Assembly (NCBI GenBank): GCA_946540435.1
Contig: CAMNII010000005.1
Coordinates: forward strand, 2,356 to 66,355
Length of the DNA: 64,000 bases
Reading direction: 5' to 3'
From: an uncultured Prevotella sp.
GTDB lineage: Bacteria > Bacteroidota > Bacteroidia > Bacteroidales > Bacteroidaceae
In this document: piece after piece, positions 17,116-31,851 of the stretch
Position numbering within the stretch: the first letter of the stretch is position 1
How the letters are laid out: each line of letters begins with the position of its first letter
The notes under the pieces: generated by a model
Told to the model about the DNA's origin: nothing
The model's database searches: none
Seen by the model: only the letters and a program-made list of their open reading frames with translations
Position numbers and translations under genes: made by a program

Positions 17116-17781
17116 CTACCAATTGATGGGACTCTCTCCGTTGGCCTGGAGATAGGCGTTGCACTGTGAGAACTGGTGGTTGCCGAACCAGCCGCCACGG
17201 TTGGCCGACAGCGGCGATGGGTGGACGCTCTCAAGGACGAGGTTCTTCTGACGGTCGATCATATACGCCTTGCTTCGGGCATAGCCGCCCCAGAGGAGGT
17301 AGACGAGATGCTCGCGCTCGGATGCCAGGGCTCGGATGGCGGCATCGGTGAACTGCTGCCAGCCCAGCCGCGAGTGGCTGTTGGCCATATGAGCACGTAC
17401 GGTGAGCGTGGCATTGAGCAGCAGGACGCCCTGCCGGGCCCATCGTGTGAGGTCGCCTGACGTTGGGATGGGGTTCCCTACGTCGTCGTGGATTTCCTTG
17501 AAGATATTCTGCAGCGACGGCGGGAAGGATACGCCGTCCTGTACGGAGAAGCTCAGCCCATGGGCCTGTCCGGGCTCATGATAGGGATCCTGTCCGAGGA
17601 TGACGACCTTCACACGGTCGAACGGGCAGAGGTTGAAGGCATTGAAGATAAGCGGCCCGGGCGGATAGCAGGCCGTCTGTCGGTACTCCTGGCGCACTGC
17701 CTCGGTGAGGGCTGCGAAATACGGTTTGTCGAACTCCCCTTGCAGCCGTTGCCGCCAACTCTCTTCTATCTTTACGTTCAT
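17116..17781 (-). CDS. ung: Uracil-DNA glycosylase
   Basis: GQDPYH, HGLSFS, PPSL, GVLLLN and HPSPLS motifs. Confidence 0.97.
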   Translation of the reverse strand: MNVKIEESWRQRLQGEFDKPYFAALTEAVRQEYRQTACYPPGPLIFNAFNLCPFDRVKVVILGQDPYHEPGQAHGLSFSVQDGVSFPPSLQNIFKEIHDDVGNPIPTSGDLTRWARQGVLLLNATLTVRAHMANSHSRLGWQQFTDAAIRALASEREHLVYLLWGGYARSKAYMIDRQKNLVLESVHPSPLSANRGGWFGNHQFSQCNAYLQANGESPINW

Positions 17782-17818
17782 GAGGAATAAAATGAGAAAT
17801 GAGATATGAGAAATGAGA

Positions 17819-17990
17819 AATTTTTTCAGTCCGGCAGGGCTAATCATAACTACTCATTTCTAATTACTAATTACTAATTTTTTCAGTCCGGCAGGGCTAA
17901 TCATAATTACTCATTTCTAATTACTAATTACTAATTTATTCAGTCCGGCAGGGCTAATCATAATTACTCATTTCTAATTACTAATTACTA
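17819..17990. repeat. 3 x 57-bp tandem copies of one arm of the heptamer-armed element
   Basis: CAGTCCGGCAGGGCTAATCATAA at 17827, 17884 and 17941. An inverted AATGAGA array precedes it at 17791-17819. Confidence 0.92.
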
Positions 17991-18578
17991 ATTAATCAGC
18001 CTTCTGATGTTGCAGCCTACGAAGTTGCCGAGGAAGATGGCGAGATAGTAAAGGGGTATCTCGGGATGCCACTGGAAGTGGGCGGTGAGGTACATCACGT
18101 CGGCGATACTGTGGTAGAAGCCACAGACGATGAACAACGGCACACCGAAGAGCACGGGCAGGAGCGTCCCTGCTGTCTTGCTGCCCCAGGGCGACGGTGT
18201 CTTCGCCATATATACGGCACAGTCGATGATGAGTCCGCAGCCGACGGCCTTCGTGAAGGCTTCCATCCACGAGTCGTCGAGCCTGTTGGCGACCATTGTC
18301 GCCAGCGCCTCGTCGTAGTTGCTGCAGTAGTGGGCTGCCAGTCCCATGATGGCGCAGCCGACGATGTTGAAGAACCACACCATGAGCAGGTCGCCCGTCT
18401 GCGACGGTTTGACGACGCCTGCCATACCGGTATAGAGCGGCACACCCATCACGATGACACTCATCAGCCCGAAGGCGAAAATCACGGAGCCGGGTAGGCC
18501 GCCCAGTGCGAGATAGCCATAGCTGCCCAGGCCGATGAAGATACCGGCGAGCAGCGCCTTACGAATCAATACTTTCAT
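17988..18578 (-). CDS. Formate/nitrite transporter family protein
   Basis: ALLAGIFIGLG, LYTG, FNIVG, FIVCGFYHSIAD and LGNFVG motifs. Confidence 0.85.
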   Translation of the reverse strand: MKVLIRKALLAGIFIGLGSYGYLALGGLPGSVIFAFGLMSVIVMGVPLYTGMAGVVKPSQTGDLLMVWFFNIVGCAIMGLAAHYCSNYDEALATMVANRLDDSWMEAFTKAVGCGLIIDCAVYMAKTPSPWGSKTAGTLLPVLFGVPLFIVCGFYHSIADVMYLTAHFQWHPEIPLYYLAIFLGNFVGCNIRRLIN

Positions 18579-18920
18579 ACTTTTTCCGTTTCTTGCCACA
18601 AAGTTACGAAAAAAGGTTGTAACAAACGAGCAATTTTCGAAGATTAACGCAGAACTATCGTAAAATAAAGGCAAGGCAGGGAATAATGGGGAATCAAAGG
18701 ATGAAGCGAAATGGCCGCTCGAACTCTGTTCGCTTTGCTCTGCCTTGATGCGGAATGGTGCAAGAGTTAGTTCACCGCTCGGCCTTTGGACGCTTTTCCA
18801 GGAAAAGACGGCTTGTGGAAGTAACTTTTTTAGAAATTGTGCATTTGAATAGAAAAAAAATCATATCTTTGTGGTCAAAAAATGGCAATACGGAACAGGG
18901 ACACCTAAAATGAAAGATTT

Positions 18921-19988
18921 ATGGCTCAATGGCAACAGATTCAAATACAACGAGAGAATGGCGAGGCTGTTGATGCTCAGGCTCCAATCATTGTCTCTGC
19001 AAGCAGGAGTACGGATATTCCAGCCTTCTATGCAGATTGGTTCTTCCATCGACTGAAGGTGGGCTATTCTGCATGGACAAATCCTTTTAATGGGTTGAAG
19101 AGCTATGTGACGTATCAGAATACTCGCTTTATCGTGTTTTGGTCAAAGAATCCTCTTCCCTTGCTCAATCATCTTGACTATCTCGAAGAAAGGAATATCG
19201 GTTGTTATATCCAATATACGCTGAATGACTACGAAAAGGAAAAATTGGAACAAGGTGTGCCTGCTCTTCAGCAGCGTATTGATACCTTTAAGCAACTTGT
19301 TGACAAATTAGGAAAAGGTCGTGTCGTATGGCGCTTTGACCCGCTGATACTGACAGACGATATTTCCATAGACACTTTGTTGGCGAAGATAGAGTATATA
19401 GGAGATCAATTACAAGGATATACAGAAAAACTTGTTTTCAGCTATGCAGACATTCTGAATTATCGAAAGGTGAAAGCCAATCTCGAAAAGAGTCATATTC
19501 CCTATCATGAATGGACGGAGCCGCAGATGCTTGAATTTGCAAAGGGCTTGTCTGCACTCAACAAGAAATGGGGATTTACCTTGGCCACTTGTGGAGAGAA
19601 AGTAGATTTACAGCAGTTTGGCATTGAACACAACCACTGTGTTGACGATGCGCTCATCATCCGTTTTGCATACGAAGACAAAGCATTAATGGACTTTCTT
19701 AAAGTCGAGACATTCCCTATGCCTGTTCCAAACCTCTTTGGCGAATCAGAGCCTTTGCCTGAGGATGCTATCATTCTTCCCAACAACACGTATGCCACTC
19801 GTGGTGACAATCGGGACAAAGGTCAACGCCTCTTTTGTGGTTGCATAGTCAGCAAGGATATTGGTGAATATAATACTTGCCCTCATTTGTGTGAATACTG
19901 CTATGCAAATACGAGCAAAGATGCTGCAGTGAGGAACAGGGAAGAACATAGAATGAATCAATTTGGAGAAACAATAAAAGGAATGTAA
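18921..19988 (+). CDS. DUF1848 family protein (radical-SAM-like, C-terminal Cys cluster)
   Basis: IVSASRSTDIPAFYADWF, VFWSKNP, WRFDPLI, GQRLFCGC..SKDIGEYNTCPHLCEYCYAN. Confidence 0.9.
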   Translation: MAQWQQIQIQRENGEAVDAQAPIIVSASRSTDIPAFYADWFFHRLKVGYSAWTNPFNGLKSYVTYQNTRFIVFWSKNPLPLLNHLDYLEERNIGCYIQYTLNDYEKEKLEQGVPALQQRIDTFKQLVDKLGKGRVVWRFDPLILTDDISIDTLLAKIEYIGDQLQGYTEKLVFSYADILNYRKVKANLEKSHIPYHEWTEPQMLEFAKGLSALNKKWGFTLATCGEKVDLQQFGIEHNHCVDDALIIRFAYEDKALMDFLKVETFPMPVPNLFGESEPLPEDAIILPNNTYATRGDNRDKGQRLFCGCIVSKDIGEYNTCPHLCEYCYANTSKDAAVRNREEHRMNQFGETIKGM

Positions 19989-19989
19989 T

Positions 19990-22900
19990 ATGAAACCATT
20001 GAAGCGATTCATTCAACAAAATAGTGGATGGGCATTTCTGTTTGAGGATGGAACAACAGAATTTTATCCTGCATTAACCTCAGATATTTCAGCTTTTGGA
20101 AAAGGGGAGTTCTTTGAGGATTCTGAACATCTATCGTGTTCTTGGGACTTTGACGAGTACAAATTGTGCCCAATATGCAAAAATGGCAAATGGGGTTTCG
20201 TAAATAAAAACTTCGAATACTCGATTCCATGTAAATATGATTTTGCAGGAATTGCAGTTAAGGATCAAGTTTACAGACATTGTTGTAACCATACAATTTA
20301 CTTCCATCACTATTTCTGGAATGCCTATACATTGTCAGAGCAGAAATCCGAAAAATATCTAAATTTCCATGAGAGAGTTAAGCCTTTTTATTGTCCTGTA
20401 TTACTTGGTAACAGATGGCTACAAATCGACGAGAATGGCAATGAACTTGCCTTTGAAAATATTGATACATATAAGACAGCTCTTAATCGAATTAATAATG
20501 TAAATGTTTCAAGCATTATTAAACTATGCCACGAATTATTGCCTGAGCAATGGAAATCTTACCCCTGGAAACATCCAGAGTTGGTGCATGGTATTGGACT
20601 ATTGGCTAGTGAAGAAGCTCTTAATTGCTATATGTCTGCTTATGGGGAAATGCATGTTGGTAAGTTACGTGCAGCAATTATGAATTTCCCTTTTAATAAG
20701 TTGGTCGGCTCTATAGAAATTGTCGATTGGGGTTGTGGACAAGGTATTGGCTCCACAACGTTAATAGAAGTATTACAACAGCGTGACTTGTTGAAGTGGG
20801 TAAAAAGGATCACACTTGTTGAACCATCACCAAATGCCATCCAACGAGCGTTGTGCAATATTTCTAAGATGGTTGACAATAACATAGAAATAAATGCAAT
20901 TAACAAATTCATGCCTGCCACAGTAGAAGTGACAGGTGAAGTAGTGACTTCTATTGGCTATAGATACAGCAAAGTCATTCATGTTTTCTCAAATATTCTT
21001 GATGTCAAGGCTATAGATTTGGCAGAAGTGGCACGCATGGTAGCTTCTTCTCATGGTAATCATTTCATTCTATGTATGGGACCCAAGAACAGTGCCGCTT
21101 ACAGAATTGAACAGTTTTGTTCAGTATTTGGTGAACAAGAATATTTTAGCCATATTGATAGCGTGAGATATGGACGAACTCAAAGAACAGGTCATCCCTA
21201 TACCTGCATGACGCGTTGTTTCGCTTATAATGGGGCATCATTAGACTTGAGCAGATTGTCATTGTATCATGATAGTGGAGAGGATGTGTTCAATGATTAT
21301 GACATGCAGCTACAATGGCAAAACAAGGTGATGTCTCGAGAGAAAGCAAGAGTTGCATATCGTCTTCAGAGTATATTGTCAGTAGATGATATCCTATATG
21401 TTGATCCTGTTATTAATGAAGTGGCAGTTGATTTTATTATTGTTCGTCCAAATAAAGGGTTACTTCTACTAAATGTGTTTGAAGAGGATCTTAATAAATG
21501 CCAATTACCCAAGGATGGCAAAGGGATTTCTGTATTAGGTGAAAATGAGGTAGTCACAAAAACACTTCAGTCACCCATTGAACTTATTAGTTTGTGCCAA
21601 ACCAGTATTAAGGATGGAATTGAAGAACTACTGTTGAGTACAATAGAAAGCAGTAAAAACTATGGTTTAATCAAGAAAGCGGTTGTGTTTACAGTTAATG
21701 ACAACAATAAAGTTAGAGATTTCTTTGGTTTATCGGGTGAGCATATTAACTACACATATTTATTTGGAAGTGAGTTTATCTCCAAGAAAAGCATCTCGCA
21801 AGGACTTTATACCCAAATAGGACTTATTAACACCTCATCATATTTTGATGATGTAGTAAAACGTAAGATTGCAAAGATGCTTTCTCCTGCATGGCATTCT
21901 TATCAAGAAGGAAAAGCTGGATTTGAACCAAAAGGAGCACAAAAGAAACTCGTGGTTAGTCAAAATACACATCAGAAAATCAGTGGAGTTGCAGGATCTG
22001 GTAAAACTCATGTTCTCGCTGCCCGTGCTGTAAATGCGATGAAACGAACGGGTGGAGATGTACTTATACTAACTTTCAATATTACATTAGCAAATTACTT
22101 GAGATATAGGCTCTCCGAACTGCGAGAGGATTTTTCATGGGAGAAAATAGATATTTATCCCTATCATCAATTTTTTAGGATACGAGCCTCAGAATGTAAA
22201 CTTCATGTTGAGTTCGGATCATATGATAATCAGTCGTTCTTTAAGGATGTGAATGTTCATAAGCGTTATTCCGCTATCCTTGTAGACGAGGTACAAGACT
22301 ATACTACCGAATGGCTAAGAATCGTTATGCAGAACTTTCTTTTGCCTAATGGAGAGTTTGTTGTGTTTGGTGATCCTAAGCAAAATGTTTATCACAGACC
22401 CATAGATAGTAATGGCGATATCCGATTGGGTGTTATTGGTGGTGTATGGAACAAAGAGCTGAGCACAGGACGGCGTTTTACCAACCCTCGACTTGCATCT
22501 TTAGCTACAGCGTTCCAGACAAGGTTCTTATCTAAGCAGTCCGTTGACACCATCAACGCGGCAAGTGATTTTGATAATTCGCTGAACTTTCAGATAGTCA
22601 CTTATTACAATATGAGAGGGGTATTCACCATGGATAATCTGGTATTGAAATTAACAGAGATAATCAAAAATAGCAACAATAGTCCAAAGGACTTTGTTGT
22701 TTTGGCATCCTATTCTAAACTGCTGCAAATAATTGATTTTAAGTATCGAGAAAAGACAGGAGAAAAGACAGAAATTACCTTTGTCTCTACAGAACAATTC
22801 GAACATTTGAAACAGTTGCATAATATTACCGATAAGCAACCTGCCAATTGGAAGTTCAAAAGAGACTATGAAGCATTAGGTCGTACTAGGAAACAACTGT

Positions 22901-23133
22901 TCACCACAGATAAGCGGTGTTTGAAACTCTCAACTATCAAAAGTTTCAAAGGATGGGAATCGCCTTCCGTGATAATTATTCTGGATGACGAGTATAATAC
23001 CAAAGTAGCTTGCCGAACTCCGATGGAGCCAGAAATGATGTATACGGCAATTACACGAGCTCGAGAAAATCTGTACATAATCAATATAGGTAACGAAACT
23101 TACGATAAATTCTTCAAAGAACAAACAATATGA
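19990..23133 (+). CDS. Multidomain protein: WG-like repeat + SAM methyltransferase-like + degenerate NERD + UvrD-like SF1 helicase
   Basis: KNGKWGFVN; IVDWGCGQGIG and FSNILDV; VDFIIVRPNKGLLLLNVFE; GVAGSGKT, ILVDEVQD, FGDPKQ, TIKSFKGWE, YTAITRAR. Confidence 0.75.
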   Translation: MKPLKRFIQQNSGWAFLFEDGTTEFYPALTSDISAFGKGEFFEDSEHLSCSWDFDEYKLCPICKNGKWGFVNKNFEYSIPCKYDFAGIAVKDQVYRHCCNHTIYFHHYFWNAYTLSEQKSEKYLNFHERVKPFYCPVLLGNRWLQIDENGNELAFENIDTYKTALNRINNVNVSSIIKLCHELLPEQWKSYPWKHPELVHGIGLLASEEALNCYMSAYGEMHVGKLRAAIMNFPFNKLVGSIEIVDWGCGQGIGSTTLIEVLQQRDLLKWVKRITLVEPSPNAIQRALCNISKMVDNNIEINAINKFMPATVEVTGEVVTSIGYRYSKVIHVFSNILDVKAIDLAEVARMVASSHGNHFILCMGPKNSAAYRIEQFCSVFGEQEYFSHIDSVRYGRTQRTGHPYTCMTRCFAYNGASLDLSRLSLYHDSGEDVFNDYDMQLQWQNKVMSREKARVAYRLQSILSVDDILYVDPVINEVAVDFIIVRPNKGLLLLNVFEEDLNKCQLPKDGKGISVLGENEVVTKTLQSPIELISLCQTSIKDGIEELLLSTIESSKNYGLIKKAVVFTVNDNNKVRDFFGLSGEHINYTYLFGSEFISKKSISQGLYTQIGLINTSSYFDDVVKRKIAKMLSPAWHSYQEGKAGFEPKGAQKKLVVSQNTHQKISGVAGSGKTHVLAARAVNAMKRTGGDVLILTFNITLANYLRYRLSELREDFSWEKIDIYPYHQFFRIRASECKLHVEFGSYDNQSFFKDVNVHKRYSAILVDEVQDYTTEWLRIVMQNFLLPNGEFVVFGDPKQNVYHRPIDSNGDIRLGVIGGVWNKELSTGRRFTNPRLASLATAFQTRFLSKQSVDTINAASDFDNSLNFQIVTYYNMRGVFTMDNLVLKLTEIIKNSNNSPKDFVVLASYSKLLQIIDFKYREKTGEKTEITFVSTEQFEHLKQLHNITDKQPANWKFKRDYEALGRTRKQLFTTDKRCLKLSTIKSFKGWESPSVIIILDDEYNTKVACRTPMEPEMMYTAITRARENLYIINIGNETYDKFFKEQTI

Positions 23134-23438
23134 CACAACTTACACCAATAGAGAAATTAGCAATTGTGACCATTCTCTCACAGATAATAAATGCTGATGG
23201 CATTATACATCCGAAGGAGGAAGAATATATAGATAAGGTTTATGCCGAACTAGGTATAACCATTAGTAATATGGAAGATATGGCTAACATGGATGAAATT
23301 CAAGCCAAATCTGTTGTAAATAAAATGCAGGAAGAGAAAAAACGATATGCACAATCTCTATTCGTTTCAATGGCTGAGGCAGATGGATATGTACATCCAA
23401 AGGAAACGGAGATAATAAATCATATATGGCAGAATTAA
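23130..23438 (+). CDS. TerB family protein
   Basis: Two ADG.(I/V)HPKE motifs (INADGIIHPKE, EADGYVHPKE). Confidence 0.85.
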   Translation: MTQLTPIEKLAIVTILSQIINADGIIHPKEEEYIDKVYAELGITISNMEDMANMDEIQAKSVVNKMQEEKKRYAQSLFVSMAEADGYVHPKETEIINHIWQN

Positions 23439-23451
23439 ACACTTTCGTAAT

Positions 23452-24063
23452 ATGGCGGCAAAAGAATTTCTTGCAAAATTAATACTTGGAAATGATATAC
23501 ACAAGGATCTGACATTTGCTGAGGAAGATGTGTATGAGGCAAGAGACAAGTATAATAATGCTTATCTGGTAATTGGTGTGCTTGAGGAAAAGAACAGATT
23601 ATTGAGTGAATCCTTAGCTACATCTAAGCAAGACATGTCTTCTTTACAGAGTGAGAAGGAATTAATAGATGCATTGCTTTCACAACTACTAAGCGATGAA
23701 GAATTAGGCAATGCGAAAATTATACTTGAAGGTAGGCTTAATGAAAAAAAAACACAACTTAGTAGACTAAAAGAAAAAGTGTTTATTCTAAAAAGATTAG
23801 GGAAATTGAAGGAAGAAAAGACTTCTTTAGAGCTCGATAATGCCAATTTGTCCCGTGAGATAGAATTATTTAATACTGTAGCTCAACGGGAAAAAATTAG
23901 AGATAATCTGTTAGCTCTGAAAGAAAAATGGCAAGAAACGCGTGATGGTTTTACGAAAAGGGTAGTTGTTGCTGACAATCTGAAATCCCTTGAGGGATTG
24001 AAACGTGAACTTGAAGATTACGAGAAACGTATTAAAAACTCTATTGAAATTGCAGTAAAATGA
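23452..24063 (+). CDS. Coiled-coil hypothetical protein
   Basis: Heptad-rich L/E/K composition throughout. Stop overlaps the next start. Confidence 0.7.
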   Translation: MAAKEFLAKLILGNDIHKDLTFAEEDVYEARDKYNNAYLVIGVLEEKNRLLSESLATSKQDMSSLQSEKELIDALLSQLLSDEELGNAKIILEGRLNEKKTQLSRLKEKVFILKRLGKLKEEKTSLELDNANLSREIELFNTVAQREKIRDNLLALKEKWQETRDGFTKRVVVADNLKSLEGLKRELEDYEKRIKNSIEIAVK

Positions 24064-27000
24064 AGATAAAAATTGCCAGCATGCTTTTGGGAGAGGATGT
24101 TAGAGCCATTCTCGACAAGATACAAACACGTAAATATGAGGCTTTGAATTTTAAGTCTCAACTGAAAGATTTGGTGCAGAGAAAGCAAAAACTAAATCAG
24201 CAATTATCTGTTTTAGAACAACAAAAGGAAAGCATTGACAAGAAAATTGTAACTTTGAGGAATGAAGTTGAAGAGAAGAGGCCTTTACGAAACGTAGCAG
24301 AACAAATAGTTCTGATAGAGAAAGACATCATTAACAAAGAAACAGAAGTAAGTGATTTATCGTCAAGTATTAGAGAGTCACAACAATCTATTACTCTGCT
24401 TCAGGAAGAAATAGGCGCCCTTAAAATGCGTAAGATAAAGTTAGAAGTTGAAAAGAAGCAATACGAAAATGCAACAGATGTCGAAGATGAAATTTCCGAA
24501 AAGTTGCAGAGTATAAATTCGGATATAACAAGTCTACAGGATTGGCTACGGAGTCGTAGTGGTGAGTTAACACAAATTGAGAGCAAGATTGCAGAACATA
24601 TCAAGGAATTAGAAGAAAAGGAAGAACCTGTGGCACCACCTCAAGACAACGCGTTAGAAGGAAAAGAAGAGGTAGGCAATGAGGATAAAACGGACATTTC
24701 CCCTACTGAAACGAACGGGAACAAAGTGCCTGATGATGATAAAAGAAATGAAACAGTAGAACCACCAACTCGGAAAAAACGCGACCACAAAATTAAAGAA
24801 GTCTTTGATATAGAAACAGGTGAGACCTTGTATGCAGAAGATTTCTTCAAAAAAACTATAGATGAATTACAGAGGTGGCGTGCTATTTTTCAACAATGTA
24901 TCTCTCAAGGCTACAGACGTTTTATCTGTCCCAAATGCCTTGAAATGATTCGTATCTCAGGTAGGGGTGACGAACGTGGTGTACCTGCTATTTTTACCCA
25001 TAAGAATGACAATGTTTTCTGTAAGAGAACTACAACAGGACAATCTGAGGAGGATATCAACCGGAAAAAATACGGATTGTTTGGCCAGAGTCAACGACAT
25101 AAGGACTTGAAGCAGGAACTCTATGACAGGCTGTGTGATAGGAATAGTATTTCTATGGGTGTTAGTAATGTAGAAATAGAGAAACGAGTTTATAGTGCCT
25201 TGCCTTTCTTCGGTTGGCGTCAGCCTGATGTACAGATAGAATATAAAGGTCATAAAATTGTTTTCGAGATTCAGTTATCCACAACATTCCTAAGTGTTAT
25301 CACCGAACGCGATACATTCTACCGTTTGAACGATTACTATATTATATGGTTATTCAACTTTGATGATAACAGGAAATACGTTGACCTGAACAATCTTGCC
25401 ATGAAAGATATATATTTTGCGAACAAACGTAATGCATTTATTTTTGATGACGAAGCGAGGGAATGGAGCAGAGAAAGTGGGCAACTGGTACTGAAATGTA
25501 ATTGGGTTGAGCCAGATTCAACATGGCATTACGCCAACACAGAAAAGCGTTTCGGAGGAGAACGAGTCACTCTTGATATGCTCAAGTTCGATCATGATAC
25601 TCATAAACACTATTATATAGACGCAGAAACACCTTATTTCGAAAAACATCCAGATATTGCGAAGCGTCTCATCTCTGAACAGAAAACAAGGGAGGAATAT
25701 ATTAAGGAATTAGAGCAGAGTGCACAAGAAAAAGAAATAAGGAAGCAGGAAGCTATTGAACAAATGGTGAGAGACGGCGGACACGTCATACCATTTGAAG
25801 AAAAGAAGAAAAAAGAAAAGAAGAAAATAGGTTTTAAATATGGGACTACCCATATCATTGAACCTCATTTTACTTCATGTGTCCCCCGAGAAGATGGCAC
25901 ATTTATTGTTGGATATCGTAGTCACGAAGGACTTGTAAACCAATATGGCGACATGATTCGTGAATGCGAGTATATCAAAATCCATCCTCTTTCAGGAAGT
26001 GCATATATTGCAGAGGGACTATCTTCTTTTTGGTTAGGCAATATAAATAGTACGTTTCGTGAACGCAGAAAAGGAGACCGGGTCGAATCCATGCTTCTGA
26101 CAGAAAGAGTAGAAAAGGTTAGTTTATTTCATAAAGATGAAGACAAACCATTCTCTTCATTCTATGTAATAGATGGAACAAAGTTTTTTGTTCACTTAAG
26201 TTACAGCACTGTTCTTATTGACCTAGAAGGAAAAAAAATTGTAGAAGAAGATTTCTCTAAAATGAAACTCATCCTTGATCGGAATCTGATGCATGTACAA
26301 CGAAAAAAGGATGGAAAATGGAACGATTTGGATTTCGATGGGAATTACATTTCCGATTGGACTATCTATGAAGAAATAAGTGGATGGGGCGAAGGACTTC
26401 GAATAGGTAAAGTTCATAAAGAAGAGGACTGGCAACAACCAGAAAAGACTTATTTCGATATTATTGATACTGAAGGAAATATTATTACAGGTGGATTGTC
26501 TTCTATTGGCGGGTTGAATAAAGGAAAAGCAAAAGTTATCATTGAAGGAAAAAATGCAGAAATAGACGCTAAAGGTCATCTTGTTCCAGAAACAATAATA
26601 CAACTATCTGACAACATTATAGCTTCAAAGGTGTTGGGATATTGGGAATTAGCTAATCAAGAAGGAAAAATCATTTTGAGTCGAAAAGAAAGAATAACGG
26701 AAATAGAACAACTTATCGTGAATCTTATTGTCATTCATCGGCATTCCAACTCTGGCTTAGTTGATGCAAATGGGATAATTATTCCATGCAATCACAAGTC
26801 TATAAGTTTATGGGCTGAAAGTATTATTAAGGTTGAAGATGTTAGTTGCGAGTACTTAGTTGATTTTTCTGGTAAACGTGTAAGCTCTAACTACAGCCAG
26901 ATATGTGCATTAGAAAACGACAAGGCAAAAGTTCTATTGAACAATTGCTTCGGTTATATTGATAAAAATGGAAAGCCCGTTACCGAGAAGGAGATACAAT

Positions 27001-27641
27001 TATCTGACGGCAGTATAAAATACCTTTTCATGGGAAAATGGGGAATCCGTAACTCTAAAGGCCAAACTACTTTGGATTGTTTATATGATGAGATTACAAC
27101 TTATCATGGTTATTATTATGTAATTGCTGACAAGAAGATAACAAAAACCAATAGGAAGACAACAAATATAGTTCCAGTTAAAGGGGTAAAAACAAGGGAA
27201 TCAGATAAAACTATAGTATTTAATGTGGCAGGCAAGGACTTCCTTGTACCTAGAGACATTTCTACTCAGTACTGGAATGGCAACATACCAGAATATGCAG
27301 ATCTTATCATCAAATACTTTCATAAGGAAACAAGTGGGAGAGGATGGCTTAGAAATACGCAATTGCATGTTTATGCAAAGCCATACCGTCAACAAGAGAA
27401 GAAATCTTATAAACAAAGAGAAATCCCAATACATGAAACAGTTAAAGGCGTTATCAACTGGGTACATTATGGAAATGCCATTGTAAGACTCCCTGATAGA
27501 AGTACATTATATGTTCACAGAAGCAATTTCAGAGGTATAACTCTTGACAAGACCTATAAAGGGAAAGAGATAGAACTCAAGAAAGTTGGAGTTAATGAGG
27601 AACATAATAAAGATGTATGGGAAATTGTTAGGATAGAATAA
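24060..27641 (+). CDS. Coiled-coil + CoiA/DUF6035-like PD-(D/E)XK nuclease + WG repeats + C-terminal S1/OB-like domain
   Basis: ~190-aa coiled-coil; FICPKC...FTH...C; WRQPDV...IVFEIQLS; repeats GLVNQYG, GLVDANG, FGYIDKNG, KWGIRNSKG; ETVKGVI...LYVHRSNF. Confidence 0.7.
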   Translation: MKIKIASMLLGEDVRAILDKIQTRKYEALNFKSQLKDLVQRKQKLNQQLSVLEQQKESIDKKIVTLRNEVEEKRPLRNVAEQIVLIEKDIINKETEVSDLSSSIRESQQSITLLQEEIGALKMRKIKLEVEKKQYENATDVEDEISEKLQSINSDITSLQDWLRSRSGELTQIESKIAEHIKELEEKEEPVAPPQDNALEGKEEVGNEDKTDISPTETNGNKVPDDDKRNETVEPPTRKKRDHKIKEVFDIETGETLYAEDFFKKTIDELQRWRAIFQQCISQGYRRFICPKCLEMIRISGRGDERGVPAIFTHKNDNVFCKRTTTGQSEEDINRKKYGLFGQSQRHKDLKQELYDRLCDRNSISMGVSNVEIEKRVYSALPFFGWRQPDVQIEYKGHKIVFEIQLSTTFLSVITERDTFYRLNDYYIIWLFNFDDNRKYVDLNNLAMKDIYFANKRNAFIFDDEAREWSRESGQLVLKCNWVEPDSTWHYANTEKRFGGERVTLDMLKFDHDTHKHYYIDAETPYFEKHPDIAKRLISEQKTREEYIKELEQSAQEKEIRKQEAIEQMVRDGGHVIPFEEKKKKEKKKIGFKYGTTHIIEPHFTSCVPREDGTFIVGYRSHEGLVNQYGDMIRECEYIKIHPLSGSAYIAEGLSSFWLGNINSTFRERRKGDRVESMLLTERVEKVSLFHKDEDKPFSSFYVIDGTKFFVHLSYSTVLIDLEGKKIVEEDFSKMKLILDRNLMHVQRKKDGKWNDLDFDGNYISDWTIYEEISGWGEGLRIGKVHKEEDWQQPEKTYFDIIDTEGNIITGGLSSIGGLNKGKAKVIIEGKNAEIDAKGHLVPETIIQLSDNIIASKVLGYWELANQEGKIILSRKERITEIEQLIVNLIVIHRHSNSGLVDANGIIIPCNHKSISLWAESIIKVEDVSCEYLVDFSGKRVSSNYSQICALENDKAKVLLNNCFGYIDKNGKPVTEKEIQLSDGSIKYLFMGKWGIRNSKGQTTLDCLYDEITTYHGYYYVIADKKITKTNRKTTNIVPVKGVKTRESDKTIVFNVAGKDFLVPRDISTQYWNGNIPEYADLIIKYFHKETSGRGWLRNTQLHVYAKPYRQQEKKSYKQREIPIHETVKGVINWVHYGNAIVRLPDRSTLYVHRSNFRGITLDKTYKGKEIELKKVGVNEEHNKDVWEIVRIE

Positions 27642-27755
27642 CACATAAACAAATGCTGCTTCTAGGCTTACGCATGGGTATGCTTGCAAGCAGCCTAATT
27701 GGAGCCTATAAGGAGGCCAAAGCAATAGTATATGAAATGAAAACGTAATAAATAT

Positions 27756-28787
27756 ATGGCAAAGCGAAGAGAAATACGAAATAGCACTGCTGAATTCCTC
27801 ATCTTTCAGATAGAGGGCAAGGAACAGGGGATAGAGGTTTACTACAAGGATAAAACCGTGTGGTGCACTCAGAAGGCGATGGGGATGCTGTTCGATTGCA
27901 CCTCTGACAATATTAGTGTGCATTTGCAGAACATCTATGATACTGACGAACTGAAAAAAGAGGCAACTACCGAGAAAATTTCGGTAGTTCGACGTGAAGG
28001 TAACAGGGATGTCAATCGTACACTCCAGTTCTATAACCTCGATGCCATCATCAGCGTGGGATATCGCGTGAACTCGATTCGCGCAACTCAGTTCCGACAG
28101 TGGGCTACCAGTGTGCTGCGAGAATATGCCGTTCGTGGCTATGTACTGGACAGGAAACGAATGGAGAATGGAACTTTTCTGGATGAGGACTATTTCGAGC
28201 ACCTGTTGGCTGAAATCAGGGAGATACGCCTCTCGGAACGTCGGTTCTATCAGAAACTGACAGATATTTACGCAACAGCCATCGACTATAATCGGGATGC
28301 TCCCACGACGAGGCTCTTCTTTAAGATGATGCAGAATAAGATGCACTATGCCGTTCATGGGCGTACTGCGGCAGAACTGATAGTGGAAAGGGCTGATGCA
28401 GAGCAAGAGCACATGGGACTGACTACTTGGGAAAATGCTCCTGACGGTAAGATAGTGAAGACTGATGTGGCAATAGCCAAAAACTATCTGAAGGAGATGG
28501 AATTGGCAGATATGGGACAGTTGGTGAATGGTGTCCTTGAATTAGCTGAACGTATGGCTAAGCGTCATATCCCGATGACGATGGAGGACTGGGCAAAACA
28601 GATAGACACCATCCTTGCAGCAGGCGGGAATGAGGTGTTGCAATCGGCAGGGAGCGTGACTGCAGAAGAAGCGAAGGACCATGCAGAAACGGAATTTGAG
28701 AAATATCGAATCATTCAAGACCGCCTCTTCCAAAGCGACTTTGACAAGTTTTTGGGAGAATTGCCGTTTATAGATGGTAACGAATAA
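27756..28787 (+). CDS. RhuM family protein
   Basis: YNLDAIISVGYRVNSIRATQFRQWAT, IREIRLSERRFYQK, MGLTTW and IAKNYL motifs. Confidence 0.92.
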   Translation: MAKRREIRNSTAEFLIFQIEGKEQGIEVYYKDKTVWCTQKAMGMLFDCTSDNISVHLQNIYDTDELKKEATTEKISVVRREGNRDVNRTLQFYNLDAIISVGYRVNSIRATQFRQWATSVLREYAVRGYVLDRKRMENGTFLDEDYFEHLLAEIREIRLSERRFYQKLTDIYATAIDYNRDAPTTRLFFKMMQNKMHYAVHGRTAAELIVERADAEQEHMGLTTWENAPDGKIVKTDVAIAKNYLKEMELADMGQLVNGVLELAERMAKRHIPMTMEDWAKQIDTILAAGGNEVLQSAGSVTAEEAKDHAETEFEKYRIIQDRLFQSDFDKFLGELPFIDGNE

Positions 28788-28802
28788 AAACGTTATAATG
28801 AC

Positions 28803-29678
28803 ATGAACAAAGTATCAATCAGGTTTTACAAGGACCATAAGGTGCGAGCCGTGTGGGATAAGGATGGGAATCACTGGTGGTTCTCGGTGCTGGACATCGT
28901 GGGAGCCATCAACCAGCAGGATGACCATGAGAAGAACCGTAACTACTGGAAGTACCTGAAGGCAAAATTGAAGAAGGAAAATAGTGAAGTGGTTAGTGAC
29001 ACTACCCAGTTGAAACTCACTGCTCCTGATGGAAAGAAACGTATGACCGATGTTATCAGCCAGACGGGTGTCGATAAGCTTGCTAAGACCATTCGAAACC
29101 AACAGGCAATGGACTTCCTCGATTGGTTCACCTACAGCGATAACACCATAGACGGACAGAGCCGGAAGAAGGCCTACACGCTGTGGGAGGGCAATCTTGT
29201 GGCTGATAAAGATGTTGGCACTGTAAAGGCTCTGCAACAGATTCACGCCTACCTGTTTGGTGGGCTATATGACTTTGCTGGCAAGATTCGCACCAAGACT
29301 ATTGCGAAGGGTAATACGCTGTTCTGTCTGGCGGAGCATTTGCACAGTTATCTGAAAACCGTTGAGGCAATGCCAGAGACAACTTTCGACGAGATTGTAG
29401 AGAAGTACGTGGAGATGAATGCGGCTCACCCATTTATGGAGGGCAACGGGCGCTCAACACGCATCTGGCTTGACATGATATTCAAGAAGCGCATGAAGAT
29501 GTGCGTGGATTGGAGCCGGATTGACAAACGTGACTATCTCGACGCCATGATTGCCAGCCATACGGATAGTAGTCGCCTCCATGAATTGCTCAAAGGTGCA
29601 ATGACAGACAAAATCGACGACCGCGAGATATTCATGAAGGGTATCGACTACTCGTATTACTATGAGCAGGAAGAATAA
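28803..29678 (+). CDS. BRO-N-like domain fused to Fic adenylyltransferase (class III-like)
   Basis: VRAVWD...WWFSVLDIV...QLKLTAPDGKKRMTDV; HPFMEGNGRSTR; C-terminal GIDYSYYYEQ. Confidence 0.88.
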   Translation: MNKVSIRFYKDHKVRAVWDKDGNHWWFSVLDIVGAINQQDDHEKNRNYWKYLKAKLKKENSEVVSDTTQLKLTAPDGKKRMTDVISQTGVDKLAKTIRNQQAMDFLDWFTYSDNTIDGQSRKKAYTLWEGNLVADKDVGTVKALQQIHAYLFGGLYDFAGKIRTKTIAKGNTLFCLAEHLHSYLKTVEAMPETTFDEIVEKYVEMNAAHPFMEGNGRSTRIWLDMIFKKRMKMCVDWSRIDKRDYLDAMIASHTDSSRLHELLKGAMTDKIDDREIFMKGIDYSYYYEQEE

Positions 29679-29679
29679 T

Positions 29680-30335
29680 AACATCGAAAGGCACGAAACC
29701 TTCCATGACGCCTCGGCGTCACAGATTTTGGATAGATTTTCAAAAGATTTTGGATAGATTTGACTTCGTCTTCCTCCTCCTTGCAGGGCAAAGCTCAAGC
29801 GAGTTTGGCTCTGCGCCTGCTTTGTTCGTCGGTTCTGCGCGAAGCGCATTCCCCCCTTTGTCCTTTGAATGTTGTTCTGTTGCTTTTTTGTCAAGAATTA
29901 GAGAATTAGAGAACCAACGACAAACCGAGAGAAAAGCCAAACTTGGTTGCTGTCAACTTTAATCAATGCAGCATATAATATAGTAATATAGGGATTGCTC
30001 TTCGAGCAAGAAATCTACAGAAAATCTGAAGAAATTCTTTTAATGTCAGATTATAGAACATCGAAAGGCACGAAAGGAACGAAAGGGATGGGGATGCGCC
30101 TTGTGCAGAAAACTTTCAAAAATCTATGCTGATGCCAAGGGCATCATAAAAAATTCGTGTTTTTCGTGTTTTTCGATGTTTCCTGATTATTTGATGTTTT
30201 TTTTTTGAACATCTAAAGGCACGAAAAAAACGAAAGGGATGTGCGTAGCGCATCCCCCTTTAGTCCCTTAAGTCCTTAAAGTCCGTAGAGAAAAACCGGA
30301 GAGAAAAGACCGTAGAGAAAAGACTGACGAAGTTC
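29680..30335. repeat. Mosaic hairpin-module repeat array, copy 2
   Basis: Shares modules with 779-1195 and 35184-36182 in a different order and orientation. Confidence 0.9.
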
Positions 30336-30336
30336 C

Positions 30337-31851
30337 TCAGCGATGTATCTGGTAGCTGAAGTCGTCGAAGCGGGCTGTGCCGCCCTCTCCATAGCAGAAG
30401 AGTCCTATGCGGAACCCTTTCCAGAAGCCTTTCGACATCATGAAGGGCTCGCCGACGGGTGTGTAGCGTCTGCCGTCGAGGCTGTAGGCGAAGCGGTGCT
30501 GGTTGGTGGTGACGTCGAGGGTGATGCGCAGGAACACCTTGGTAGGCCGCTTGCTGCTGACGAGTTCCGTCTGTCCGTTCTCCTCTATATAGATGCCGTC
30601 GGCATTGACGCCGATGCCGCGGAAGTCGCTGCCGATACAGAGCAGTCCGGCACGGGCGGTGTCGAGGTCGCGGCAGTCCATCAGTACGGTGGCCTCGCTC
30701 TCGAAGCCCATGGTCTTCTGGGTGAGCATGTTGCGGGCGTTCTTCAGGTCGGGCGAGGGCTGGGCGTGGATGGTCAGCCATCCCTTCCGCTCGGTGAGGC
30801 TCCAGTGGCTGTCATCGGGGTTGTGGCACCACTGCCACTGCAGTCCCAGCTGTGTGCCGTCGAAGTCGTCGGAGGTCTGTGGCAGCATCGGCAGGGTATT
30901 GCCTCCCACGGCCGGCTTTGTCCATACGCTGACGGGTTCGCCGATGCCGTTGCCGTCGATGTCGACGCCCATCAGCGGCCAGTCGTCGCGCCACCGTGCG
31001 GGCTGCAGGTGGACGACGCGTCCGAGCACGGGGGTGTCCTGGAAGTGGAAGAACCACCAGTCGCCGTCAGGCGTGTCGACGAGGGCGCCCTGATGGGGTC
31101 CGTTGACCGCTGTGGAGCCCTGTTCGAGCACCACGCGCTTCTCGTAGGGTCCGTAGATGTTTTTCGACCGCAGGACGGTCTGCCAGCCTCCGCCGACGCC
31201 GCCCTCTGGGATGATCAGATAGTAGTAGCCGTTGCGCTTGAGCCATTTCGTGCCTTCTGCCACGGGTCCGGTATATACCGTCACGCCGTCGTCGAGCAGC
31301 CGTCGGCCGTCGGCCGACATCCTGTGGACGATGATCGGTCCTGCTCCCCACTGGCTACGGCCGAGATAGGCCTGGCCGTCATCGTCCCAGAGTGGACAGG
31401 GGTCTTCCCATTTCTCCACGGCCTTCACGCAGTGGAGCAGTGTCCACGGCCCGCGCACGTCTTCTGCCGACGACATGAAGAGGCCCTCGTCGGGCGTACA
31501 CACATAGACGTAGAAGCGTCCGTCGTGCCAGCGGATGCTCGGTGCCCATGGTCCTCCGGCATAGTGGCTGTTGGTGTTCCATCCCGGCAGGTCGAGGCGT
31601 CTGAAGATCTGGGCAGCGACCTGCCAGTTCACCATGTCGTCGGACTCCAGCACCTGCATGCCCAGGAAGTGGAAGTCGCTGGCCACCATGTAGTACTTGC
31701 TGCCCACGCGGATGACGTCAGGGTCGGAGTAGTCGGCGTTGAGCACAGGGTTCTTATACGTGCCGTTGCCCTGGTCGCCCCAGTCGAGGGGTGCCTGTGC
31801 GCTAACACCCGTCGTGCACAGTGTCAGCAGGATGGAAAGTATTACTCTCAT
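30337..31851 (-). CDS. Glycoside hydrolase family 43 (beta-xylosidase/arabinofuranosidase-like) with C-terminal beta-sandwich
   Basis: NPVLNADYSDPDV, WAPSI, WEDPCP, AEG, PHQG and SDDF motifs; signal peptide. Confidence 0.92.
   Translation of the reverse strand: MRVILSILLTLCTTGVSAQAPLDWGDQGNGTYKNPVLNADYSDPDVIRVGSKYYMVASDFHFLGMQVLESDDMVNWQVAAQIFRRLDLPGWNTNSHYAGGPWAPSIRWHDGRFYVYVCTPDEGLFMSSAEDVRGPWTLLHCVKAVEKWEDPCPLWDDDGQAYLGRSQWGAGPIIVHRMSADGRRLLDDGVTVYTGPVAEGTKWLKRNGYYYLIIPEGGVGGGWQTVLRSKNIYGPYEKRVVLEQGSTAVNGPHQGALVDTPDGDWWFFHFQDTPVLGRVVHLQPARWRDDWPLMGVDIDGNGIGEPVSVWTKPAVGGNTLPMLPQTSDDFDGTQLGLQWQWCHNPDDSHWSLTERKGWLTIHAQPSPDLKNARNMLTQKTMGFESEATVLMDCRDLDTARAGLLCIGSDFRGIGVNADGIYIEENGQTELVSSKRPTKVFLRITLDVTTNQHRFAYSLDGRRYTPVGEPFMMSKGFWKGFRIGLFCYGEGGTARFDDFSYQIHR

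What the first reader, a model, noticed from the sequence alone, without database searches (positions are those of the whole stretch)
18921..27641. Candidate undescribed anti-phage/stress system: DUF1848 + WG-MTase-NERD-UvrD + TerB + coiled-coil + coiled-coil-nuclease-WG-S1
Seen: five co-oriented AT-rich genes that are translationally coupled (1-nt gap, ATGA overlap, 13-nt gap, ATGA overlap) behind one TATCTTTG promoter element (18864), followed by rhuM and fic. Established: SF1 helicases, PD-(D/E)XK nucleases, TerB domains and long coiled-coils recur in defence systems; DUF1848 has a C-terminal radical-SAM-like Cys cluster. I recognise no named system with this set (Shango has TerB plus an AAA ATPase and an SF2 helicase; Gabija has an OLD nuclease plus UvrD). 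Inference: two SAM-linked enzymes may install or sense a nucleic-acid modification, while the helicase and CoiA-like nuclease form the effector, with WG repeats and coiled-coils as scaffold or sensor.
Basis: partly seen in the sequence, partly recalled or inferred. Interest (0 to 1): 0.82.

Follow-up and report, generated by a model that had tools for sequence, protein, structure and literature searches.

The report
Mosaic DUF1848-helicase-nuclease defence candidate
Five tightly packed foreign genes are a splice of two conserved, unnamed gene modules: an iron-sulfur enzyme plus methyltransferase-helicase plus TerB trio, and a coiled-coil plus nuclease pair; the two kinds of module keep turning up together in gut and rumen bacteria, so this is probably an untested anti-invader system.

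Summary
Five co-oriented genes (18921-27641) have the stated junctions, 34-42% GC against a 55-63% backbone, and nearly all the stated domains.

The set is a mosaic of two modules, not one indivisible system.
- Module 1 is DUF1848 + methyltransferase-like/degenerate-NERD/UvrD helicase + TerB. Across 51 species-level loci with a full-length helicase homologue, DUF1848 lies upstream in 49 and TerB downstream in 38. The coiled-coil/nuclease pair is in none.
- Module 2 is a 203-aa coiled-coil protein plus a 1193-aa protein: coiled-coil, zinc ribbon, CoiA-like nuclease, WG repeats, S1-like tail.
- DNA homology switches from one module family to the other at 23430-23437, at the TerB stop codon.

Module 2 nevertheless recurs beside DUF1848 + methyltransferase + helicase genes in six arrangements. 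One has the same DUF1848 and D-E flanks (about 80% nt) around a different middle. This supports a functional link.

No PADLOC system and no paper matches. The only literature link is DUF1848 with UG25 methylase-RTs (Mestre 2022). This scan had already found the trio and two sister cassettes on other DNA. The nuclease add-on is the new part. The exact five-gene set was seen only here. Defence role and chemistry are untested.

The parts
18810..18920 (+). Left end of the foreign block, with promoter-like TTTG (18844) and TATCTTTG (18864-18871) and a conserved 5' leader (GGGACACCTAAAA)
   Evidence: Nucleotide homology to 8 related loci starts at 18810. The motif and leader are conserved in L081, L015, L018, L083/84, L038 and L016.
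18921..19988 (+). Gene A: DUF1848 protein (355 aa), a radical-SAM-like barrel with a C-terminal CxC...CX3CX2C cysteine cluster
   Evidence: Pfam PF08902 E 5e-91. PADLOC RTasDUF1848 E 7.5e-35. Invariant C306/C308/C320/C324/C327. Model pLDDT 88.9. 17 of the top 19 structural matches are radical SAM enzymes, Z 7.9-9.9.
19990..23133 (+). Gene B (1047 aa): WG-repeat N-domain, class I methyltransferase-like domain, degenerate NERD domain and SF1 UvrD-like helicase
   Evidence: Family of 1628 hits, in a long form (~1047 aa) and a short form (~885 aa).
20542..21264 (+). Methyltransferase-like domain of B (aa 185-425); motif I EIVDWGCGQG, LIEPS, HxFSNILD
   Evidence: Invariant columns. Foldseek matches class I SAM methyltransferases, best METTL17/Rsm22 (8csp_7, E 2.8e-6, prob 1.0). 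1069 cluster representatives, with lengths of 127-1738 aa among the 150 listed.
21331..21669 (+). NERD-like domain of B (aa 448-560); D481 is kept but N495-V-F497 sits where E-x-K is expected
   Evidence: PADLOC C3a187 NERD+UvrD match starts at aa 448. Alignment A4 shows the lysine position is F/C/R across relatives.
21907..23133 (+). SF1 (UvrD-like) helicase core of B; GSGKT 669, DEVQD 766, GDPKQ 794, TAITRAR 1019
   Evidence: Pfam UvrD-helicase, AAA_19 and Viral_helicase1. The motifs are invariant in 15 homologues.
23130..23438 (+). Gene C: small TerB-domain protein (102 aa), ATGA-coupled to B
   Evidence: Pfam TerB E 3.9e-10. Present in the same position in 38 of 51 related loci.
23430..23437 (.). 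Module junction: trio-type homology ends and D-E-type homology begins
   Evidence: blastn block ends at 23404-23439 and block starts at 23432-23466.
23452..24063 (+). Gene D: 203-aa coiled-coil protein with no family; an obligate neighbour of E-type genes
   Evidence: No Pfam or PADLOC hit. A profile of D finds it only directly upstream of E homologues. Weak similarity to the N-terminal coiled-coil of E (21% identity, E 0.011).
24060..27641 (+). Gene E (1193 aa): coiled-coil (aa 1-190), zinc ribbon DUF7830 (254-326), CoiA-like PD-(D/E)xK nuclease DUF6035 (343-521), WG-repeat region (~580-1080), S1-like OB fold (1123-1184)
   Evidence: Pfam DUF6035 E 2e-11, DUF7830 E 8.7e-6, CoiA_nuc E 3.9e-5. 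S1 E 0.016 and WG 17 bits are sub-threshold. Motif conservation. 109 homologues. Atlas neighbours are DUF6035/CoiA clusters.
27756..29678 (+). Neighbours, not part of the system: RhuM (27756-28787) and Bro-N/Fic (28803-29678); GC 47-48%
   Evidence: Pfam, plus PADLOC PDC-S05 and PDC-S04. D-E-type homology ends at 27655-27693. GC.

Best explanation
The locus is a horizontally acquired piece of a defence island. Its five genes are a recombinant of two conserved modules that probably work together as an anti-phage/anti-plasmid system.

Module 1 (A-B-C) is a widespread, mobile trio of Bacteroidales.
- A is a radical-SAM-like Fe-S enzyme (DUF1848).
- B is a helicase with a SAM-methyltransferase-like head and a dead NERD domain.
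- C is a small TerB protein.

Module 2 (D-E) is a coiled-coil protein plus a long protein that combines a coiled-coil, a zinc ribbon, a CoiA-like nuclease, WG repeats and an S1-like tail.

Proposed working, all of it inferred:
- The helicase loads on or tracks along invading nucleic acid.
- The methyltransferase-like domain and DUF1848 act as a SAM-using enzyme pair that marks, processes or reads that nucleic acid.
- TerB acts as a small regulator or adaptor.
- E supplies the nuclease that B's dead NERD domain lacks. It may pair with D through the coiled coils. It may be guided by its WG and S1 domains.

What is shown: the gene structures, the domain folds, the conserved catalytic-type motifs, the conservation of each module, the recombination joint, and the repeated co-location of D-E with DUF1848/methyltransferase/helicase sets.

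What is inferred: the defence role, the physical contacts and every chemical step.
For: Trio conservation. In 51 species-level loci with a full-length B homologue, DUF1848 is upstream in 49 and TerB downstream in 38, mostly with the same ATGA overlap.

Deep pairing of DUF1848 with this methyltransferase-like domain. It also sits beside ~1500-aa proteins (probably UG25-type methylase-RTs, not checked) and an SF2-helicase fusion (Mestre 2022, PMC9226505). The domain occurs in proteins of 127-1738 aa among the 150 listed.

D-E linkage. E homologues lie next to DUF1848/methyltransferase/helicase genes in six arrangements:
- A-B-C-D-E (this window).
- DUF1848-Sel1-miniUvrD-2CompART/ARG-MTase487-D-E (L081, L083, L084, L164-166).
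- DUF1848-[MTase+SF2 helicase]-cc-D-E (L089).
- MTase-202-UvrD-581-DUF1848-D-E (L090).
- E-NERD/UvrD-...-DUF1848 (L106).
- E-MTase-UvrD-575-DUF1848 (L108).
Sources. Twelve of 33 metagenomic E loci show such a neighbour. The methyltransferase-like domain was found in only 17 of 401 genomes of the order.

Shared frame. The window and L081 share the DUF1848 end (80% nt) and the D-E end (82% nt) but have different middles.

Defence-island context. Genes downstream of the trio elsewhere include SLFN_AlbA_2 (5), RhuM (3), PD-(D/E)xK nucleases and a PIN-helicase. Here RhuM/PDC-S05 and Fic/PDC-S04 follow.

Foreign origin. Low GC, and a B core that is 98-100% nt identical to Prevotella sp. tf2-5.

Intact motifs. 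Helicase, methyltransferase motif I, the DUF1848 cysteines and the E nuclease E...D...EIQ.
Against: - No experiment exists for any component.
- None of the 51 species-level trio loci carries D-E. About half of them have no co-oriented, closely spaced downstream gene at all (several of these loci end at or near the contig end). So the trio does not need D-E.
- D-E occurs alone (L005/L006). Many E-like giants of 2100-2500 aa have no such neighbours. So D-E may not need the trio.
- The homology break exactly between C and D fits simple shuffling of independent island cargo.
- The exact five-gene set was seen only here.
- DUF1848 homologues also occur without a methyltransferase partner in large phage contigs. 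Its chemistry therefore need not be tied to defence.
- Structural matches of DUF1848 to radical SAM enzymes are only middling (Z 8-10), and Pfam Radical_SAM does not hit.
Confidence: 0.5

Rival explanations
1. Two independent systems lie side by side. The DUF1848-helicase-TerB trio is one self-sufficient unit and the D-E coiled-coil/nuclease pair is another. They are neighbours only because both ride the same family of Bacteroidales defence islands, where cassettes are swapped at their borders.
For: - The trio occurs without D-E in 51 of 51 species-level loci.
- D-E occurs without the trio (L005/L006; L091).
- The homology joint lies exactly at the TerB stop.
- The nearest B relatives (96%) carry a different 284 + 693-aa pair at the same spot.
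- Other island cargo (SLFN_AlbA_2, RhuM, Fic) recurs around both modules.
Against: - D-E or E alone lies beside DUF1848/methyltransferase/helicase genes in six different orders, with fused and split forms, across 41-89% E identity. That is hard to get from chance co-travel of a rare gene family (methyltransferase-like domain in 17 of 401 genomes).
- The 13-nt gap and single upstream promoter-like site put D-E in the same transcription unit here.
- B's NERD domain lacks its catalytic lysine, so the trio has no evident nuclease of its own.
Confidence: 0.3
2. This is a DNA or RNA modification or repair pathway rather than immunity. DUF1848 and the methyltransferase-like domain would write or repair a base modification, in the way spore photoproduct lyase or RlmN/Cfr act on nucleic acids. 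The helicase would give access, and the nuclease would process intermediates.
For: - DUF1848's nearest folds include the DNA-repair radical SAM enzyme spore photoproduct lyase and the RNA methylase Cfr.
- DUF1848 homologues of ~310 aa occur in 100-435 kb phage contigs and giant-virus bins without the partner, as expected for a general nucleic-acid enzyme.
- CoiA relatives act in recombination during transformation (own knowledge).
Against: - The distribution is patchy and foreign: 17 of 401 genomes, low GC, near-identical copies across genera.
- The loci sit among defence-type genes.
- Partner domains are shuffled extensively: SF1, SF2, RT, ADP-ribosyltransferase. This is typical of conflict systems, not of housekeeping repair.
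Confidence: 0.12
3. The unit is a toxin-antitoxin-like or abortive-infection writer/eraser pair. The methyltransferase-like domain would make a toxic mark on nucleic acid and DUF1848 would remove it, with E as an independent passenger.
For: - A and B are tightly coupled (1-nt gap).
- A sister cassette carries an ADP-ribosyltransferase fused to an ADP-ribose glycohydrolase, which is a writer/eraser logic (2CompART/2CompARG).
- An earlier scan note proposed this (e1-2991786).
Against: Nothing here bears on toxicity. Both enzymes are conserved together with a helicase, which a simple toxin-antitoxin pair does not need.
Confidence: 0.08

Closest known systems
UG25 class 1 UG/Abi reverse-transcriptase systems (Mestre et al. 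2022, NAR, PMC9226505)
   Same: A DUF1848 gene is paired with a protein that has an N-terminal methyltransferase domain. PADLOC names the window's gene A RTasDUF1848 (E 7.5e-35). Loci L070, L071, L074 and L076 show DUF1848 beside ~1500-aa proteins with the same methyltransferase-like domain.
   Different: There is no reverse transcriptase here. The methyltransferase-like domain is fused to a degenerate NERD domain and an SF1 helicase. TerB, D and E are not part of UG25. UG25 itself has no tested function.
Gabija (GajA OLD-family nuclease + GajB UvrD-like helicase)
   Same: A UvrD-like SF1 helicase works with a separately encoded nuclease. B gives partial GajB hits (best E 1.7e-13).
   Different: There is no OLD/TOPRIM ATPase-nuclease. 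The nuclease here is CoiA-like (DUF6035). Gabija has no methyltransferase, DUF1848 or TerB.
Shango (TerB protein SngA + ATPase SngB + helicase SngC)
   Same: A small TerB-domain protein is encoded with a helicase in a defence-type operon.
   Different: There is no separate ATPase gene. No Sng model was among the PADLOC hits listed. Shango lacks DUF1848, the methyltransferase-like domain and the nuclease.
Nhi and other NERD/nuclease-helicase single-gene defences (PADLOC C3a187 'NERD+UvrD', AbiO)
   Same: B residues 448-1030 match the NERD+UvrD model (E 3.9e-41). B also matches Nhi (9.8e-9) and AbiO (1.1e-10) in part.
   Different: The ExK lysine of the NERD domain is not conserved, so B is probably not its own nuclease. 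B carries an extra methyltransferase-like head and always has DUF1848 beside it.
CoiA competence nuclease family / DUF6035 proteins
   Same: E residues 343-521 match DUF6035 and CoiA_nuc, with the E...D...E-I-Q pattern and a preceding zinc ribbon (DUF7830).
   Different: E is four times longer. It adds two coiled-coil stretches, a ~500-aa WG-repeat region and an S1-like tail. It has a dedicated coiled-coil partner gene. There are no competence genes around it.
DISARM / BREX / Dpd type modification-plus-helicase defence systems
   Same: The general logic is shared: a SAM-dependent enzyme, a helicase and a nuclease-type effector encoded together on mobile islands.
   Different: None of their signature proteins (PglX, PglZ, DrmA/B, DpdA) was hit. 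The SAM enzyme pair here (Rsm22-like fold + DUF1848) is not found in any of them.

Membership tests
DUF1848 (PF08902) | Full-length match to the Pfam model above the gathering score | tested here: met
   305.5 bits against a cut-off of 30.5, model positions 1-262 of 262.
Radical SAM superfamily (for gene A) | CX3CX2C cluster-binding motif | tested here: met
   C320-x3-C324-x2-C327 is invariant in 23 sequences. It lies at the C-terminus, not in the usual N-terminal loop.
Radical SAM superfamily (for gene A) | Partial TIM-barrel fold like solved radical SAM enzymes | tested here: inconclusive
   17 of the 19 best VIA-align matches are radical SAM enzymes (MqnE Z 9.9, HemN 9.0, HydG 8.9, SPL 8.8). 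Z 8-10 is only middling. Foldseek gave no match at E <= 0.001. Pfam Radical_SAM did not hit.
Radical SAM superfamily (for gene A) | Binds a 4Fe-4S cluster and cleaves SAM | not testable with these tools
   This needs protein chemistry.
Class I SAM-dependent methyltransferase (B aa 185-425) | Rossmann-like fold with motif I (D/E)xGxGxG and an acidic residue after strand 2 | tested here: met
   Foldseek gave 314 matches at E <= 0.001; the 50 listed are class I methyltransferases or assemblies that contain one. EIVDWGCGQG and LIEPS are invariant. Pfam itself gives no methyltransferase hit for B.
NERD nuclease domain (B aa 448-560) | PD-(D/E)xK catalytic set including the ExK lysine | tested here: not met
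   D481 is conserved, but the ExK position reads N-V-F here and is F/C/R in relatives. Pfam NERD does not hit B. Only the PADLOC NERD+UvrD model does.
SF1 UvrD-like helicase | Walker A, Walker B (DExx), motif III and motif VI | tested here: met
   GSGKT 669, DEVQD 766, GDPKQ 794 and TAITRAR 1019 are invariant in 15 homologues. Pfam UvrD-helicase E 2.9e-14.
UG25 / DRT-type system | Reverse-transcriptase domain in the methyltransferase-bearing protein | tested here: not met
   No RT family was hit in any of the five proteins. Only the DUF1848 partner model matches.
Gabija | GajA OLD-family ATPase-nuclease next to GajB | tested here: not met
   No GajA hit in A, C, D, E or the neighbours. B gives partial GajB hits only.
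Shango | TerB protein plus a separate ATPase plus a helicase matching the Sng models | tested here: not met
   TerB is present. There is no separate ATPase gene among the ORFs. No Sng model is in the listed PADLOC hits (only the best 25 of 35 hits for B were shown).
DUF6035 / CoiA-like nuclease (E) | Match to PF19500 and PF06054 above cut-off, with the acidic and E-x-Q motifs | tested here: met
   DUF6035 44.6 bits (cut-off 22.6). CoiA_nuc 24.3 bits (cut-off 20.3). E374, D390 and E403-I-Q405 are conserved in the homologues aligned.
S1 RNA-binding domain (E C-terminus) | Match to PF00575 above the gathering score | tested here: inconclusive
   16 bits against a cut-off of 22, E 0.016 on the isolated tail. 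Two homologues carry a precomputed PF00575 hit.
TerB (gene C) | Match to PF05099 above the gathering score | tested here: met
   40.5 bits against a cut-off of 24.4. It covers only the C-terminal third of the model (positions 68-115), in two stretches.

The most novel reading that the evidence does not exclude
DUF1848 plus the Rsm22-like methyltransferase domain would be the catalytic core of a large, unnamed superfamily of conflict systems. The core plugs into interchangeable motors (SF1 helicase, SF2 helicase, reverse transcriptase) and interchangeable effectors. The D-E coiled-coil/CoiA-like nuclease would be one dedicated effector. It would be recruited to nucleic acid that the SAM enzyme pair has chemically marked by a radical-SAM-dependent modification not yet known in immunity.
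Probability: 0.2. Interest if true: 0.85.

Novelty: new variant of a known kind. Interest (0 to 1): 0.62.

Why it matters
If the link is real, this locus is the first place where a DUF1848/methyltransferase/helicase cassette has an obvious executioner, a CoiA-like nuclease. These cassettes are widespread in gut and rumen Bacteroidales and none has a tested function. The locus therefore gives a testable read-out: does DNA cleavage depend on the SAM enzymes?

The natural module swaps also help. The same DUF1848 and D-E flanks surround two different middles, which amounts to a ready-made complementation design.

Success would add a new enzyme chemistry (a radical-SAM-like enzyme plus a methyltransferase) to bacterial immunity. 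It would also assign a function to four Pfam families of unknown function: DUF1848, DUF6035, DUF7830 and the WG repeats.

Tried and rejected
- Complex prediction of DUF1848 with B residues 160-650 (alignments A3 and A4) returned 'no answer' (score 0.00). It is not used either way.
- Sequence search of solved structures with A and with B 150-650 found nothing meaningful.
- Foldseek on the DUF1848 model gave no match at E <= 0.001. The VIA-align wide search was needed.
- Literature searches for DUF1848, DUF6035, DUF7830, 2CompART, and for TerB+NERD+UvrD, found only Mestre 2022.
- Rfam on 17800-30400 found nothing near any gathering score.
- An empty-site comparison with the three nearest held genomes failed because they are only about 70% nt identical. 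The right end of the island was therefore not defined.
- A profile of D found no remote D-like gene behind other trios.
- Pfam on the neighbours of phage-borne DUF1848 genes was uninformative.
- E homologues were not found in IMG/VR.
- Rejected as memberships: Shango, Gabija, UG25 proper, and an active NERD nuclease (see the membership tests).
- The sigma-70-type promoter and terminator scan was no better than shuffles. It does not apply to Bacteroidetes promoters.

Full report
**What is there**

The window carries a low-GC block (34-42% GC in the five genes, 47-48% in the next two) inside a backbone of 55-63% GC. Five + strand ORFs fill 18921-27641:
- A: 355 aa
- B: 1047 aa
- C: 102 aa
- D: 203 aa
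- E: 1193 aa

A TTTG/TATCTTTG pair lies 50-77 nt upstream of A. It fits the Bacteroidetes promoter consensus. The same sequence, plus a conserved leader, is present in at least seven related loci. RhuM and a Bro-N/Fic protein follow E. Both match PADLOC candidate families PDC-S05 and PDC-S04. No tRNA or integrase is nearby.

**The proteins**

A is a full-length DUF1848 (E 5e-91).
- Five C-terminal cysteines, including CX3CX2C, are invariant.
- A confident model (pLDDT 88.9) matches radical SAM enzymes best. Seventeen of the top 19 solved chains are radical SAM enzymes, at Z 7.9-9.9: MqnE, HemN, HydG, spore photoproduct lyase and others.
- The scores are only middling and Foldseek alone was inconclusive. 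I therefore call A 'radical-SAM-like' and nothing stronger.

B has four parts.
- A WG-repeat N-domain (29 bits when scanned alone).
- A class I methyltransferase fold with invariant EIVDWGCGQG, LIEPS and HxFSNILD. The best structural matches are METTL17/Rsm22.
- A NERD-like domain. Its aspartate is kept, but the ExK lysine is replaced (N-V-F here; F, C or R in relatives).
- An SF1 helicase with all core motifs invariant.

C is a small TerB protein. D has no family and reads as a coiled coil.

E has five parts: an N-terminal coiled coil, a zinc ribbon (DUF7830), a CoiA-like PD-(D/E)xK nuclease (DUF6035, with E374, D390 and E403-I-Q405 conserved), a long WG-repeat region, and an S1-like tail that is sub-threshold here.

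**Module 1 is a conserved trio**

A scan of one genome per species returned 51 loci with a full-length B homologue. They come from Prevotella, Bacteroides, Parabacteroides, Porphyromonas, Alistipes, Muribaculaceae and others.
- DUF1848 lies directly upstream in 49 of them.
- A TerB gene lies directly downstream in 38, mostly with the same 4-nt overlap.
- Neither D nor E occurs in any of them.
- In about half, no co-oriented gene follows closely (several of these loci end at or near the contig end).
- In the rest the followers vary. They are typical island cargo: SLFN_AlbA_2 with HATPase_c_4, RhuM, PD-(D/E)xK nucleases and a PIN-helicase.

The B family is large: 1628 hits, in a long form with the WG head and a short form without it.

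DUF1848 also pairs more distantly with other carriers of the same methyltransferase-like domain. These are ~1500-aa proteins (probably the UG25 methylase-RTs of Mestre 2022; I did not check them for an RT domain) and an SF2-helicase fusion. The domain has 1069 cluster representatives. The 150 listed range from 127 to 1738 aa.

**Module 2 is D-E**

E has 109 homologues, mostly from gut and rumen metagenomes. D-like genes occur only directly upstream of E-type genes.

Some E relatives stand alone or only with D (L005-L008; the 2100-2500-aa giants L093-L101). Others lie beside DUF1848/methyltransferase/helicase genes in five further layouts:
- DUF1848-Sel1-miniUvrD-2CompART/2CompARG-MTase-like(487 aa)-D-E. 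All E relatives of 82-89% identity that have enough context show this layout (L081, L083, L084, L164-L166).
- DUF1848-[MTase-like + SF2 helicase, 1376 aa]-cc-D-E (L089; L088 by synteny).
- MTase-202-UvrD-581-DUF1848-D-E (L090).
- E-NERD/UvrD-...-DUF1848 (L106). L102 has the helicase and a TerB-like ORF.
- E-MTase-UvrD-575-DUF1848 (L108).

Twelve of 33 metagenomic E loci show such a neighbour. The methyltransferase-like domain was found in only 17 of 401 genomes sampled across the order. Chance co-location is therefore unlikely.

**The window is a recombinant**

- Nucleotide homology to trio loci runs from 18810 to 23404-23439.
- Homology to D-E loci runs from 23432-23466 to 27640-27693.
- The joint is at the TerB stop codon.
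- The DUF1848 end (18810-19981) is also 80% identical to the L081-type locus. The window and L081 therefore share both ends and differ in the middle: B + TerB here, Sel1-helicase-ADP-ribosyltransferase/glycohydrolase-MTase there.
- The core of B (20546-22800) is 98-100% identical at the DNA level to Prevotella sp. tf2-5. A is only 73-85% identical and C 86-89%. That indicates a very recent exchange tract.
- The nearest B relatives (96%) carry a different 284 + 693-aa pair after TerB. The larger protein looks WG-repeat-like by a language-model lead only.
- I did not find the exact five-gene set anywhere else.

**Reading**

The data support a modular family. DUF1848 and a methyltransferase-like domain are the constant pair. 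A motor (SF1, SF2 or RT) is always attached. Accessory modules vary. D-E is one recurrent accessory, and it supplies the only intact nuclease in this locus.

I think a defence role is more likely than not. The grounds are island context, foreign composition, recent transfer between genera and domain shuffling. No experiment exists, and the chemistry of the SAM enzyme pair is unknown.

The main rival is that the trio and D-E are separate systems that co-travel. The fact that each occurs without the other keeps this rival alive.

**Comparison with known systems**

PADLOC found no complete system. Shango, Gabija and UG25 each share one or two parts but fail a defining feature (see the membership tests). 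The only paper that mentions DUF1848 in this setting is Mestre et al. 2022.

This scan had already reported the trio and two sister cassettes on other genomes. My results agree with those notes. They add the D-E link and the recombination joint.

Noticed in passing
window 20546-22800 (core of gene B) versus L015 (Prevotella sp. tf2-5): This tract is 98-100% nt identical to a Prevotella isolate, while the flanking DUF1848 (73-85%) and TerB (86-89%) are much less so. The host backbone has about 57% GC. This looks like a very recent gene-conversion or transfer tract inside the operon.
   Followed up: partly
window 18799-18830; L081, L015, L018, L083/84 upstream of DUF1848: Relatives carry a perfect palindrome, CACAAG-G-CTTGTG, about 100 nt upstream of DUF1848. 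In the window, homology begins in its centre (18810) and the left arm is replaced by host sequence. The palindrome may be a recombination site, an operator or the terminator of the upstream gene.
   Followed up: no
L119-L163 (IMG/VR contigs): DUF1848 homologues occur in 45 viral contigs. About 25 are ~310-aa forms at 26-35% identity, many of them in 100-435 kb phage contigs. Three lie in giant-virus bins. None of these has the methyltransferase-like partner. Pfam on their neighbours was uninformative.
   Followed up: partly
L081:5525-7144, L165:6192-7808: The sister cassette encodes a single protein that fuses a 2CompART ADP-ribosyltransferase domain to a 2CompARG ADP-ribose glycohydrolase domain. 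It sits between a minimal UvrD-like helicase and a methyltransferase-like protein. A separate ADP_ribosyl_GH gene often follows E.
   Followed up: no
L015:13465-16490, L167:4842-7876: In the closest B relatives, the trio is followed at a 4-10 nt gap by a 284/285-aa and a 693/694-aa protein with no Pfam family. The larger one resembles WG-repeat proteins (Atlas score 0.89, a lead only). WG repeats also occur in long-form B, in E and in a 638-aa gene after E in L088.
   Followed up: partly
window 27756-29678: RhuM (PDC-S05) and Bro-N/Fic (PDC-S04, NmFic-like, E 1.4e-74) have 47-48% GC, which differs from both the five genes and the backbone. They look like a third, separately acquired block. RhuM also follows the trio in three other loci.
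   Followed up: partly
L165:1-1360: The L081-type locus lies next to VapE-like/DUF5906 primase-helicase and DUF6078 genes, which suggests carriage on an integrative mobile element.
   Followed up: no
window 17116-17847 (- strand): A uracil-DNA-glycosylase-superfamily gene lies 1 kb upstream of the island, in host-GC sequence. It is probably unrelated to the island, but it is worth noting next to a putative DNA-modifying system.
   Followed up: no
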